Assembly (NCBI RefSeq): GCF_964204645.1
Contig: NC_134025.1
Span: forward strand, 8,246,001-8,310,000
DNA from: Tubulanus polymorphus
Lineage: Eukaryota; Animalia; Nemertea
Direction of reading: 5' to 3'
Length of the DNA: 64,000 nucleotides
Positions 22,740 through 64,000 of the stretch are shown here, one piece after another (position 1 is the first letter of the stretch; each line of letters starts with the position of its first letter). A program made the translations under genes and the position numbers. Under the pieces are notes generated by a model. That model did no database searches and was not told the origin of the DNA. It was given only the letters and a program-made list of their open reading frames with translations.

Positions 22740-25700
22740 ATGGCGAGTTGGAAGGCCACCCCTTCAGGAGCTGCACTGGACCAGTATAACAGTCTAGGTT
22801 CATATAGAGTTACTGGTGGGCTTAGACGCACTGATACATTATCCTCAAGGCGCAGTTCTGATTCCAGTAGGCTAGGCCTTAGTTTTATATTCCACAGGGG
22901 CGGATCTTGGGGTAAATCTGAGGGTCTTCTCAGAATTCTAGGGGCATACCTAAAAGAAAAGGGCACTGATAACACACCGAGCGCAGCGCGCAAGGCTAAT
23001 ACTGCTTCAGCGCGCGAGGCTAACACTGCTTCAGCGCGAAGCCCCCCAGAAAATTTTGAGATTCCAGCACTGATTTGAAGCCATTTCCTGCATTTTGAGT
23101 CATGAAATTGTTTTGCCAGCAAAATTTTTTGAGGGCACTTAAGAATTTGAGGGTCTTCCAGAAGACCTGTAAGACCCCCTAGATCCGCGCCTGTTCCAAT
23201 TTAATCATACCTCTTTAGATATTCTGGTATATAACTAATACATATTGTAATGGTTTTCCAATTGCTTCTATATTGATTAGTTACTGTATCCACTTGAGTT
23301 TCAACCTACTGTTGAGTCAATCGTGTTCATTTAATCCTCTTTCTATTCATGATAATTGGATTCTTTAGACTATATGACTTTCTGCACTTGAATAAGCTTA
23401 TTAGAGTTGATCGAATGAAAGTAATTGAATTCTTTATACGATTTACAGCATGTTAACTAATGAGCTAATCAGTGTTGCTGTTTCCCCAGTGAACAAATTA
23501 TAAAAAGCAAAAGATACATATTTTGATGAAAATTTATAAGATTGAGGGTTTGATTAAATCATCCAATGATAAGTGCATGAATCTACCCTTTCGAAAATTT
23601 CAGTTATTGTGTTCCATATTCTTGAAATATCATTATAAGGCCTATAGTTTTTAGGACTAAGTAAAATTTACTTTCTACGTTTGGCAATGGTATCATTTGG
23701 TTTTATGAGTTTCTTTCCCCGTGCAAACTTCTATTCTTCATGGCAACCTGATTGATTCTTCTACCATTGGAATGTTTTGGTTCAACAAAATAGAATTTCA
23801 CCAAATATGGCCTAACAAGGTATCTTTCAGTACTTCCACTTCTTGAATTCATTTAGATGGTGCCCAGGAAGCTGCTGAAGTTGTTGAGCTATTGAGGAAG
23901 AAGGCGATTTATCTTACTGGTAGGCTATGACTTTCCAATCATAAATGCCATTATCTGAAATTATAACAAATTCTAAAGATTGGGTCAATATTATTGGATT
24001 GTTTAGATGAAAAATTTTATATAATTCAACAGACAATCCTTCAGATTTTTGTTAAATTTAATTTATTAATCTTTAGGGGGACGCGATAAACGTGGCGGTC
24101 CATTGATGACATTTCTTTCCAGTCATGATGCCTCCCCGCTACCTCAATCTGATCTCAAGGCATGTGTTTCTTATTTATCAACTGTTCCATGGTAAGTTCA
24201 TTTAGGATAACACATTTCTTTTCAGGATATATTGTAACATTGAAAAATTCACCACTACTTGGTGCTAGTACTATTCTGTTTAGTGAATAAGCATTCCACT
24301 GAATAAAGAAGTTTTATCAAACACAAGAAAGGCTATCAAAACAATATCAAATTCTTTCCTGATTCGATTACTATAACGAGTGCATTGAATGTTTTAATCT
24401 AGTCAACTATAGCCTATATACAAAACTATGCACGTCCTATGCTATGGACTGACAACGAGCAGTGATCAAGTGGCCAGTGAGCGTATATTCATTTTACTGT
24501 CTCATAATCGATAGGAAATACGTGTAGGCCTAATGAAAATTCAACCATTTGATCTGCACTGTGCAGGTGTAATACTAGTGTATAGTACACAAAGTATAAT
24601 CTATTCATTTGTGAAAAATCAAGTCGAACATGTCTTGAATTGCCCGCATTTAGTCAGCTATACAACAATACAAAATTACTACCTGAATAAGATATTTAAA
24701 AGCGAATGTTTTAAATGGAAAATAGATTTTTATAAGTCTCTGTTAAGAGAGTGGTTTCCTAAAGATTCTCAGTTGTAATTAATATGGCTTCAACTAAAGT
24801 TCTTGAAAAGCATTTCTCACTGGGCTTTGCTTAAAAATGTATTCGCCTATTACATCAAAAACGCTGATTACTAATGCTTCAAAGGTCCCTTGACCTAGGA
24901 ATTTTCCCTTTCATGTCAATAGAACTATCAATTTGTGATTTGTTGACGCTTTACACACATTCTTACAGTTGTTTCCATATTTGAAATACCAATCACAGCA
25001 ATAGTGTAAGCCATTTAGGTCAATTATATTTATTTTTGACTTAGTCTAACAATTGGGCCTAGTAAATCGATGGTTTTATTCAGGAAATACTATAAGTACT
25101 TTAGGTTATTTGAGATAATTAAAGCAAATTCGAATGGTTATAATTGCTTGTTTTGAAGTAGTAATTTGGGTTTTTAAGTCAAAAAGATCCATCTGACGGG
25201 TATTTAGAACTGTATTCAAAAGGACTGTCACCTTCCCCTGAAATTGAAAAAAAAAGATTGATGTCATTGATTTTCACATCGACTTGTCCATGATTCTCAA
25301 AACTTTGAATATTTTTTCAGCATGGAATCATTACGTCATGGTTTCACAGTGATCATAGATAACCGACAAGGTTACTGGAAGAATCTCAAGTCACTTTTTC
25401 AGTTATTATTGGTAGGTCTAACATTTAAAACAATTTCCTTCAATAAGTACCATGAATACAAGGTTTAAGTGGCAAATTCTCTTTTTAGGACACAATGCCA
25501 AGGACTCTGTATATGATCCTGGTAATTAAACAAGAACAGAAAGTCAATGTTGTGTCCTCATTGAGACGAGAAAAGACAATACCTGGTTTAGATGTAAGTT
25601 GACTGACAACTTGGTTAATTCCAATGTAGAAAGTATTTTTCATAGATATTATGTTTATTTCTCTAGACGGTAGAACTCCGTTAATTCGGATTTTTCAATC

Positions 25701-63600: not shown

Positions 63601-64000
63601 ATACTTCTAGATTGGAATGTCGTGTCAATGCATATCCCCTTCCAAAAATAACATGGTATGTAAACAGTCGTGAGATCAAGCCATCTCCGAAGTATCGTAT
63701 CATACGGGAGGGAAGCACATGCATCCTGGTTATTGTTGATGTGCGACCACAGGATGCTGGAGAATATATTCTCAAAGCTGAGAATGAACTTGGTGAAACC
63801 ACTTGTCGAACGGTGCTCAATATTTCTTGTGAGTAGATTATATTTCTATTTATTTGATGACTGTTTTCTGCCAAGTTTATCAATCAAAAAATTAAAAGCA
63901 ATCAAGCTGTATTAGAATTAAGGGATATACATTTAAAGTAGTTCATTAGTACATAGGAAATCATTTTCATTGCCAATTTCAGTGGCTCCATCAGATTCTC
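22740..64000 (+). CDS. TTN: Giant connectin/titin-family gene: Sec14 + spectrin repeats + at least 20 I-set Ig domains, running off the 3' end of the window
   Basis: Continuous phase-compatible exon chain from ATG 22740 ([53 protein letters not shown]) through spectrin repeats and Ig domains to the partial exon at about 63982. No obligatory stop was seen at the junctions I checked. Confidence 0.85.
22895..23193. mobile_element. CAG...CTG MITE (hAT-like) with a 5-bp TSD
   Basis: TIR caggggcggatct / agatccgcgcctg, TTCCA on both flanks, and internal 24-bp GC-rich tandem repeats. Confidence 0.75.
25668..25831. mobile_element. pogo/Tigger-like MITE
   Basis: TIR cggtagaactccgttaattcgga / tctgaattaaatgagttctactg. 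Confidence 0.7.
25842..26783. repeat. Compound microsatellite (TA)n(TATG)n(TA)n(CATG)n(CATA)n bounded by inverted TTACGGT ends
   Basis: Directly visible; lies in intron 25594-26806. Confidence 0.95.
28404..28487. repeat. Intronic 42-bp tandem duplication
   Basis: tagtgtacacatatgcaacgttgcatgcaatgttgttatcta occurs twice in tandem. Confidence 0.9.
32804..40201 (+). CDS. CCDC141: CCDC141-like spectrin-repeat module with its own first coding exon (32804-32938)
   Basis: [44 protein letters not shown] and [17 protein letters not shown] match human CCDC141 (STTTVSSVAVQAGDSKIVIAVIK..QPNLLEIGSSQDET; QVYDAMAETLGEAWAAL). Confidence 0.88.
37266..37535. repeat. (TA)n microsatellite with TG interruptions, intronic
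   Basis: Directly visible. Confidence 0.95.
38029..38324 (+). other. Mutually exclusive duplicated exon pair (38029-38154 and 38196-38324)
   Basis: [42 protein letters not shown] versus [43 protein letters not shown]; both are phase 0-0 and lie 41 nt apart. Confidence 0.85.
44313..44552 (+). repeat. Coding 48-nt tandem repeat encoding (Q/K)[15 protein letters not shown] x5
   Basis: Visible in the DNA and in ORF 44232-44837. Confidence 0.92.
44733..59640 (+). CDS. TTN: Titin Z-disc module co-linear with vertebrate Z1-Z9
   Basis: Z1 [12 protein letters not shown]2 [27 protein letters not shown]3 [21 protein letters not shown]; linker [17 protein letters not shown] (human FHISSFEERLIKEIEYR); [12 protein letters not shown]8 [21 protein letters not shown]9 [25 protein letters not shown]. 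Confidence 0.9.
45931..46163 (+). promoter_or_regulatory. Putative internal promoter and alternative first exon in the Z1-Z2 intron
   Basis: ATTGG at 45931, TATAAAA at 45947 and Inr-like TCAGTT/TCACTT at 45961-45974. ATG 46106 opens [19 protein letters not shown], followed by a phase-1 donor CAG|gt at 46164 that is compatible with the Z2 exon at 46936. Confidence 0.6.
52831..54032 (+). mobile_element. Non-autonomous Helentron/HINE (DINE-1-like) element
   Basis: 5' hairpin tagcccacttgggactttagtcccagcgggcta after a T run, a (CGTC)n-like tract, a 3' subTIR tcccaagtggg, a small stem-loop gtccctggac and terminal CTAGTT. Confidence 0.75.
53388..53716. mobile_element. hAT-like MITE nested in the HINE
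   Basis: TIR tggttcccacag / ctgtgggaacca with internal ttgggaa repeats. Confidence 0.7.
54041..54149. repeat. ~53-bp tandem duplication
   Basis: aaatcctaaata.ttga.at.ttacacaggaaaagt.attttccaatat occurs twice. Confidence 0.8.
55609..56423. mobile_element. Mutator/foldback-like non-autonomous element with a 9-bp TSD
   Basis: TSD aaatttgaa at 55600-55608 and 56424-56432; G...C termini; TIRs built from tandem ggaaaaaatgtccc units. Confidence 0.85.

What the first reader, a model, noticed from the sequence alone, without database searches (positions are those of the whole stretch)
22740..64000. SESTD1, CCDC141 and titin appear to be one transcription unit
Seen: a full-length SESTD1-like region is followed by a ~100-aa linker ending [10 protein letters not shown]|gtaagt (phase 0, 30637). 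This splices in frame to [10 protein letters not shown] (33231) and rebuilds a typical spectrin-repeat helix A (F..D...DWI). The CCDC141-like spectrins then run without a forced stop into six Igs and titin Z1-Z9. Established: in human, SESTD1, CCDC141 and TTN are three separate co-oriented neighbours in this same order on 2q31, and Drosophila zormin (spectrin + Ig) is linked to sallimus. Inference: this locus preserves an unsplit ancestral Sec14-spectrin-titin gene whose N-terminus could tie the Z-disc to membrane lipids. Comparative studies may already have noted the idea; I cannot check that here.
Basis: partly seen in the sequence, partly recalled or inferred. Interest (0 to 1): 0.9.

Follow-up and report, generated by a model that had tools for sequence, protein, structure and literature searches.

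The report
Living SESTD1–CCDC141–titin fusion, two starts
Three muscle-related genes that are separate neighbours in humans lie here as one unbroken 82-exon reading frame with a second, internal start exon, so this worm-like animal likely makes both a long lipid-binding-headed form and a shorter form of a titin-like protein; the fused ancestor was proposed in 2025, but this splice in living bilaterians appears unremarked.

Summary
An 82-exon model from 22740 to 63828 reads 5372 aa without a stop: Sec14 domain, spectrin repeats, 20 Ig domains. It groups with SESTD1, not TRIO/kalirin. Its motif begins 44 of 324 fetched proteins and occurs in none of 34 SESTD1 carriers. The SESTD1 linker ends in half a spectrin helix A (rank 1 of 87). 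AlphaFold on homologs predicts the shared exon's start as a helix when joined to SESTD1 and a β-strand after the start exon. No RNA run was listed, and no record spans Sec14 to titin Z2. The ancestral fusion, 'connectitin', was published in 2025 (PMC12198301), and this scan saw the synteny before in an arthropod (e1-7596966). Verdict: likely one locus with two starts and a short SESTD1-only end. The concept is known; the bilaterian splice and predicted fold switch are the new part.

The parts
22740..22866 (+). SESTD1 first coding exon (ATG 22740)
   Evidence: In frame with exon 2; homolog models from Owenia, Anneissia and Diadema also begin MAS-
23857..26920 (+). Sec14/CRAL-TRIO-like domain, exons 2-6
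   Evidence: 35-42% identity to the same region of mollusc and hemichordate SESTD1; the Octopus ortholog matches the kalirin Sec14 structure 7UR2 by sequence (E 1.3e-24) and by fold; single window exons give no Pfam CRAL-TRIO hit
27015..29692 (+). SESTD1 spectrin repeats, exons 7-15
   Evidence: PF24915 Spectrin_SESTD1, E 1.1e-16 on 28582-28821; tree
30247..30637 (+). Last SESTD1 exon: helix, low-complexity linker, half of spectrin helix A, then a phase-0 gtaagt donor
   Evidence: Tail scores 14.9 bits, rank 1 of 87 linker 10-mers; donor rank 51 of 81
30638..30721 (+). Read-through tail to TAG: likely end of a SESTD1-only form
   Evidence: 27 codons; 14 of 82 donors read as far, so the length is not special; homologs P0055 and P0059 end the same way
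32804..32938 (+). AAA|gtaagt, phase 0)
   Evidence: 13-22 of 24 core residues identical in 14 homolog N-termini; donor rank 60 of 81; no usable acceptor upstream (best with an open frame 1.55 bits, below all 80 model acceptors)
33231..33353 (+). Shared exon accepting either 30637 or 32938
   Evidence: Both models are open; homologs show both upstream partners
34658..40201 (+). CCDC141/zormin spectrin repeats
   Evidence: 58% to Owenia, 50-54% to molluscs, Lingula and two JGI proteins over about 687 aa; hits named CCDC141-like
38029..38324 (+). Pair of look-alike exons (38029-38154, 38196-38324), likely mutually exclusive
   Evidence: Both open in phase 0; homolog models favour one or the other
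40517..44103 (+). Six Ig domains (zormin-type)
   Evidence: Own HMM; colinear with Ylistrum, Lingula and Plakobranchus giants
44228..44730 (+). Pro-rich repeat spacer
   Evidence: Sequence
44733..50137 (+). Seven Ig domains; the second (46947-47223) is titin Z2-like
   Evidence: 90.3 bits to titin residues 102-194, best single-domain PDB match; the first is ambiguous between Z1 and Z2
50216..57492 (+). PEVK-like region of cassette exons
   Evidence: 687 aa, 39% P/E/V/K; all 12 exons from 50510 to 57492 are multiples of 3; exon choice here is by hand, least certain part of the model
58107..63828 (+). Seven more Ig domains with linkers; the gene runs off the window
   Evidence: Own HMM; 45-46% to Ylistrum, Lingula and Plakobranchus titin-like models

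Best explanation
This is a lophotrochozoan SESTD1-CCDC141-titin ('connectitin') locus whose exons form one open frame, and it likely works as one transcription unit with two starts and an optional early end. Likely output 1: from the SESTD1 start, splicing 30637→33231 skips CCDC141's start exon and completes a spectrin repeat, giving Sec14 + linker + spectrin rod + Ig/PEVK chain. Likely output 2: from an internal promoter before 32804, a zormin-titin form without Sec14, whose first 35 structured residues are predicted to form a three-stranded β-meander. Likely output 3: SESTD1 alone, by reading through the 30637 donor to the stop at 30721. The long form would give the Z-disc/I-band filament a membrane-lipid-binding head on a flexible linker; that function is inferred only.
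For: Shown in the window: open 5372-aa and 4560-aa models with canonical sites; average-strength donors at both 30637 and 32938; all 7 spectrin exons that start x-x-x-W do so in phase 0, 33231 among them; the exon-16 tail fits the profile of 70 such helix-A halves better than the median training example (14.9 vs 12.4 bits), while start-exon tails score -7.6 to -14.7. Shown in homolog records: the same SESTD1→exon-2 junction in 9 genes (Octopus XP_014784189, Babylonia, Haliotis, Owenia, Anneissia XP_033111497, Diadema, Vespa, Pogonomyrmex, unnamed JGI P0151). In 6 of 11 homolog linkers the junction 10-mer ranks first, and all 11 lie within the top 15% or so (worst 16 of 106). The start motif and the SESTD1 core never share a record (46 vs 34 of 324). 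Contigs too short to hold introns carry each form: P0053 (start form through the Z2-like Ig, 3098 aa on 9510 nt), P0151 (joined, 477 aa on 2103 nt), and the P0055 cluster (read-through, 876-888 aa on 2.8-3.2 kb); that these are spliced RNA is inferred from the lengths. AlphaFold: helix 848-872 runs across the junction at 862 in Octopus; strands 21-30, 33-42 and 45-54 in start-form P0017. Literature: human CCDC141-TTN and fly zormin-sls spanning transcripts are cited in PMC12198301 and PMC12657953.
Against: No RNA from this organism was available. Most joined records are automated gene models whose intron support I could not see. No record spans Sec14 to Z2: Haliotis reaches Z1/Z2-like Igs and Owenia the Z1-like Ig, but both models lack the Sec14 match; Diadema, Vespa and Pogonomyrmex have Sec14 and Igs but no clear Z2 ortholog; Octopus, Anneissia and Babylonia stop within or just after the spectrins. 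None of the 5 giant hits (3942-12544 aa) carries SESTD1. Three junction tails (Octopus, Babylonia, P0151) score below zero. P0151's SESTD1 match is weak (43 bits). Both structure predictions are of homologs, from 25-26 row alignments, with pLDDT 54-67 (helix) and 65-76 (strands).
Confidence: 0.65

Rival explanations
1. The SESTD1→CCDC141 splice is real, but those transcripts end early, as Sec14-zormin forms that stop in the spectrins or first Igs. The titin part proper is made only from the internal start.
For: All joined records with a Sec14 match lack a clear Z2 ortholog; every giant model seen starts at the internal exon or just after it; fly zormin isoforms are 324-388 kDa products distinct from kettin (PMC7039190).
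Against: The Haliotis and Owenia models join SESTD1 spectrins through to Z1- or Z2-like Igs; nothing in the window forces a stop; giant joined proteins above 5000 aa were outside the SESTD1-query range, and annotation of such genes is often fragmentary.
Confidence: 0.21
2. Two separate genes as in vertebrates: SESTD1 ends at 30721 and CCDC141-titin starts at 32804. The donor and half helix are relics, and the joined database models are annotation merges.
For: A conserved start exon exists; cephalopod-like short contigs and the Saccoglossus models show the split forms; several insect-like SESTD1 records end in their own conserved terminal motif.
Against: A phase-matched half helix at the end of an otherwise unconserved linker in four phyla is hard to keep without selection; the read-through tails are not alike between species; the joint falls at the same residue in all 9 genes; P0151 sits on a contig too short for introns.
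Confidence: 0.12
3. The Sec14-spectrin part is a TRIO/kalirin paralog, not SESTD1.
For: The only solved relative is the kalirin Sec14 domain; the Sec14 domain alone is 28-36% like TRIO/kalirin-type proteins.
Against: The window row sits with mollusc SESTD1 (SH-aLRT 99) inside a SESTD1 clade (100) apart from TRIO/KALRN (quick tree); 43-47% against 22-27% identity over the whole region; no RhoGEF domain follows the spectrins.
Confidence: 0.01

Closest known systems
'Connectitin' (SESTD1-CCDC141-TTN), Hanashima et al. 2025, PMC12198301
   Same: Same order, orientation and domain series; proposed there as one ancestral gene and reported as a single protein in cnidarians and placozoans.
   Different: For bilaterians the paper calls the single gene hypothetical and ancient, and cites spanning transcripts only for CCDC141-TTN and zormin-sls. 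Here the SESTD1→CCDC141 splice looks alive. Cnidarian connectitin has RhoGEF/PH/SH3 and kinase domains, which are not seen in the window or in the P0028/P0029 Pfam lists.
Drosophila CG15822 - zormin - sallimus (sls/kettin)
   Same: Spectrin repeats plus Igs made from the same gene as the I-band titin; I-band-type Ig and PEVK chain.
   Different: CG15822 is treated as a separate gene. No fly sequence was compared directly; wasp and ant models do join SESTD1 to zormin.
Human SESTD1, CCDC141 and TTN on 2q31
   Same: Neighbours in this order; a CCDC141-TTN spanning RNA is cited; Z2-like Ig matches titin.
   Different: Three annotated genes; CCDC141 has one Ig against six here; vertebrate titin has fn3 and kinase regions not present in this window.
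Kalirin/TRIO
   Same: Sec14 followed by spectrin repeats; kalirin uses internal promoters that the 2025 paper likens to the three gene starts.
   Different: Separate clade; RhoGEF domains instead of an Ig array.

Membership tests
SESTD1 | N-terminal Sec14/CRAL-TRIO domain | tested here: met
   Window aa 47-205 are 41% identical to the Octopus domain, which matches kalirin Sec14 7UR2. Indirect: window exons alone gave no Pfam hit, and Octopus scored 15.2 bits against a cut-off of 23.
SESTD1 | SESTD1-type spectrin repeats; clade apart from TRIO/KALRN | tested here: met
   PF24915 at 61.6 bits; tree support 99 and 100, quick tree only, no DBS/MCF2 outgroup.
SESTD1 | Phospholipid binding | not testable with these tools
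   Reported for mammalian SESTD1 (abstract start of PMC4536496) and, as weak lysolipid binding, for kalirin Sec14 (PMC9823006).
CCDC141/zormin | Own N-terminal start motif followed by spectrin repeats and Ig | tested here: met
   Exon 32804-32938; top hits named CCDC141-like.
Titin/connectin family, I-band (sallimus/kettin) type | Z1/Z2-type Igs followed by Ig and PEVK-like segments | tested here: met
   Z2-like 90.3 bits; PEVK-like 39%; colinear with models named titin. Z1 inconclusive; Z3-Z9 not tested.
Vertebrate-type full titin | A-band fn3 super-repeats and kinase | tested here: inconclusive
   Absent from the window, which ends inside the gene; absent from the Pfam lists of P0028 (partial) and P0029.
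Connectitin (single gene) | SESTD1, CCDC141 and titin parts adjacent, co-oriented and joinable in frame | tested here: met
   read contigs bridge 28459-37240, 37570-44343 and 44440-52852 with 0-1 differences (X1 may be the source sample).
Connectitin (single gene) | One transcript carrying all three parts | not testable with these tools
   No RNA holder listed; no record spans Sec14 to Z2.
Cnidarian-type connectitin | RhoGEF/PH/SH3 and kinase domains after the Igs | not testable with these tools
   The gene runs off the window and no genome is held; no cnidarian record was identified among the hits.
TRIO/kalirin | Clade membership and RhoGEF after the spectrins | tested here: not met

The most novel reading that the evidence does not exclude
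The Sec14-headed giant titin is not extinct in bilaterians: annelids, molluscs, echinoderms and some arthropods still make it. The choice of 5' exon switches the first CCDC141 segment between helix A of a spectrin repeat (joined to SESTD1) and the third strand of a β-meander cap (internal start). That gives muscle one filament form that can dock on membranes and one that cannot; vertebrates kept only the capped form.
Probability: 0.35. Interest if true: 0.75.

Novelty: new variant of a known kind. Interest (0 to 1): 0.48.

Why it matters
It turns a published evolutionary hypothesis into a direct test. The 2025 paper asks why SESTD1, CCDC141 and titin stayed linked for over 500 million years; a still-used splice between SESTD1 and CCDC141 would be a mechanical answer. 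It also shows how the gene could split without loss: an internal start exon and a read-through stop were already in place. If the long protein exists, invertebrate muscle has an overlooked candidate link from Z-disc to membrane, and the predicted helix/strand switch by exon choice would be a neat structural case.

Tried and rejected
No whole genome is held. No RNA holder listed. The three runs laid cover introns and show no splice joints, so they behave as DNA and say nothing on expression. Pfam on single Sec14 exons found nothing. The AATAAA at 31205 and the 27-codon read-through were rejected as evidence for a real 3' end: both match chance. Use of the 32804 exon as an internal cassette was rejected: acceptors with an open frame score 1.55 bits or less, and no SESTD1 carrier holds the motif. 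Macrostomum P0099 and P0204 hold the motif internally but after a Met and without SESTD1, so they were set aside as likely model merges. Lottia P0008 mixes SESTD1 and CCDC141 pieces out of order and was not counted. Hyalella P0101 and Schistocerca P0102/P0205 have other upstream exons without a SESTD1 match and were not counted as joined. The careful tree did not finish; the quick tree is reported. The search of earlier findings by sequence was empty. Complex prediction and the protein atlas were not used.
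Full report
What is there. The window is AT-rich animal DNA with short introns; no whole genome is held. I read 22400-64000 and built an exon model by hand. Sixteen SESTD1 exons (22740-30637) plus 66 downstream exons (33231-63828) give 5372 aa without a stop, with AG at every acceptor and GT at every donor but one GC. 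An HMM built from five of the window's own Ig domains finds 20 Igs: six at 40517-44103, seven at 44733-50137 and seven at 58198-63825. A 687-aa PEVK-like stretch of frame-neutral exons lies between the last two groups; that stretch is the least certain part of the model. The gene runs off the window. The nearest named relative over the CCDC141 spectrins is the annelid Owenia (58%), then molluscs and Lingula at 50-53%, so the animal is a lophotrochozoan, perhaps an annelid. Read contigs bridge the key intervals, so misassembly is unlikely, though X1 may be the source sample.

Identity of the parts. In a quick tree of 27 rows the N-terminal region groups with mollusc SESTD1 (SH-aLRT 99) inside a SESTD1 clade (100) apart from TRIO/kalirin. 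Identity over the region is 43-47% to SESTD1 records and 22-27% to TRIO/kalirin-type ones. The Octopus ortholog's N-terminal domain matches the kalirin Sec14 structure by sequence and by predicted fold. An exon at 35134-35385 finds proteins named CCDC141-like at 73-83% among its top named and unnamed hits (20 of 102 candidates passed). Exon 46938-47222 scores 90.3 bits against titin residues 102-194, which I recall as Z2. The half-domain before it scores 39.9 bits to the first and 43.9 to the second titin domain, so 'Z1' rests on position. Z3-Z9 were not tested.

Inside the supposed intron lies an ATG exon, 32804-32938, ending AAA|gtaagt in phase 0. I first recognised it from memory of human CCDC141 and then tested it. 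Its 24-residue core is identical at 13-22 positions in 14 homolog N-termini. Of 324 fetched proteins, 46 carry the motif, 44 of them within the first 60 residues, and none of the 34 with a SESTD1 core carries it; many of the 46 are near-duplicate Schistosoma records. It has no usable acceptor, so it is a first coding exon, implying an internal promoter (inferred). Giant models start with it and run through spectrins into long Ig arrays: Ylistrum XP_060064415 (7355 aa), Saccoglossus XP_006823021 (6732 aa), Fasciola and Schistosoma. The Lingula and Plakobranchus titin models begin just after it. A Logan contig of 9510 nt encodes 3098 aa from this exon past the Z2-like Ig, which implies spliced RNA. 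So CCDC141 joined to titin is well supported, and it is also the part already in print.

Seven spectrin exons in the window start x-x-x-W in phase 0, and 33231 is one. I built a profile from 70 upstream 10-mers of the six other junctions and their homologs. The last ten residues of SESTD1 exon 16 score 14.9 bits, above the training median of 12.4 and first among 87 linker windows; start-exon tails score -7.6 to -14.7. The same joint, skipping the start exon, is in 9 genes: Octopus, Babylonia, Haliotis, Owenia, Anneissia, Diadema, Vespa, Pogonomyrmex and unnamed JGI P0151. In 6 of 11 homolog linkers the joint 10-mer ranks first; three joined ones score below zero. These are mostly automated models, but P0151 lies on a 2103-nt contig, too short for the introns. 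Stand-alone SESTD1 also exists: four Logan contigs of 2.8-3.2 kb were listed, and the one read in full (P0055) and Saccoglossus XP_006823022 end a few residues after the same half helix with V-S or V-G, as read-through of a GT donor would give. In the window, neither the 27-codon tail nor the AATAAA is beyond chance.

Against. No RNA run was listed for this DNA. No record runs from Sec14 to a Z2 ortholog. The searches had limits: SESTD1 query over 2007-5000 aa, best 120 of 262 listed; giant range with a CCDC141 query, 5 hits among 765 candidates scored; best 150 of 909 representatives.

A predicted fold switch. AlphaFold on a start-form homolog (P0017, 25 rows) gives three strands at 21-30, 33-42 and 45-54, the third being the start of the shared exon (pLDDT 65-76). 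On the joined Octopus protein (26 rows) a disordered linker (755-852) leads into one helix, 848-872, across the joint at 862 (pLDDT 54-67). The helix-A Trp is kept in 9 of 9 joined genes and 17 of 25 start-form rows; the rows are not independent, so this is weak. The switch is a prediction on proxies at modest confidence.

How it likely works. Shown: the frame, sites, domains and homolog junctions. Inferred: two promoters, a choice at 30637 between splicing and read-through, and a long form. Inferred from known families: the Ig/PEVK part sits at the Z-disc and I-band like kettin and zormin (PMC7039190), the spectrin rod binds partners such as nesprin and localises to costameres like CCDC141 (PMC12657953), and the Sec14 head binds lipid weakly like kalirin's (PMC9823006). 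My rough odds: start exon used 0.95, SESTD1 splice used 0.85, one molecule from Sec14 to Z2 0.6, membrane tether function 0.3.

What is known. Hanashima et al. 2025 (PMC12198301) name the SESTD1-CCDC141-TTN unit 'connectitin', report it as one protein in cnidarians and placozoans, show the fly synteny, and call the bilaterian single gene hypothetical. I read parts 1-4 of 7 of the text and section 22, and searched its five supplements for six terms; figures were not seen, and Fig. 5, Fig. 7 or unread supplement parts may bear on novelty. Of PMC12657953, PMC9823006 and PMC7039190 I saw passages only; of PMC4536496 the listing only. Labeit 2006 and Burkart 2007 are cited through those papers, unread. 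Eight searches listed no title or abstract on a SESTD1→CCDC141 splice in bilaterians; the library lacks most subscription journals. An earlier scan note covers the synteny and the CCDC141-titin join in an arthropod.

Verdict. A real feature and a member of a published system. The live SESTD1 splice across four phyla, the two-start design and the predicted fold switch are testable additions. Interest 0.48.

Noticed in passing
window 38029-38154 and 38196-38324: Two look-alike phase-0 exons 41 nt apart, too close to splice together; mollusc, annelid-like and brachiopod models favour one or the other, suggesting an old mutually exclusive pair in a spectrin repeat.
   Followed up: partly
window 27365: Read contigs of X1 and X2 carry 12 more bases here, in frame inside SESTD1 exon 8: an allelic indel or a consensus difference.
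   Followed up: no
window 52827-54032: Very high-copy repeat (summed contig depth above 100,000 against about 30) in a PEVK-region intron; no clear terminal inverted repeats or Pfam hit.
   Followed up: partly
window 50510-50716 and 51301-51405; 50876-50983 and 51621-51710: Cassette exons in the PEVK-like region come as duplicated look-alike pairs.
   Followed up: no
window 209-2270 (+): Glycoside hydrolase family 65 gene, 3' part (PF03632 E 9e-17).
   Followed up: partly
window 10700-15302 (+): Protein kinase exons (PF00069 below cut-off) followed by a 987-codon last exon without a Pfam hit; DYRK-like by my recall, untested.
   Followed up: partly
window 25850-26775 and 37262-37540: Long TA/TATG/CATA microsatellites in introns.
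   Followed up: no
window 60656: The one GC-AG intron of the model, inside an Ig domain.
   Followed up: no
P0101, P0102, P0205 (Hyalella, Schistocerca): Arthropod models reach the shared exon from yet other upstream exons that also end in helix-like tails, hinting at further starts inside the SESTD1 linker.
   Followed up: no
P0129, P0142, P0160: Unnamed records that I recall as vertebrate CCDC141 keep the same start motif (15-17 of 24 residues identical); the label is from memory.
   Followed up: partly
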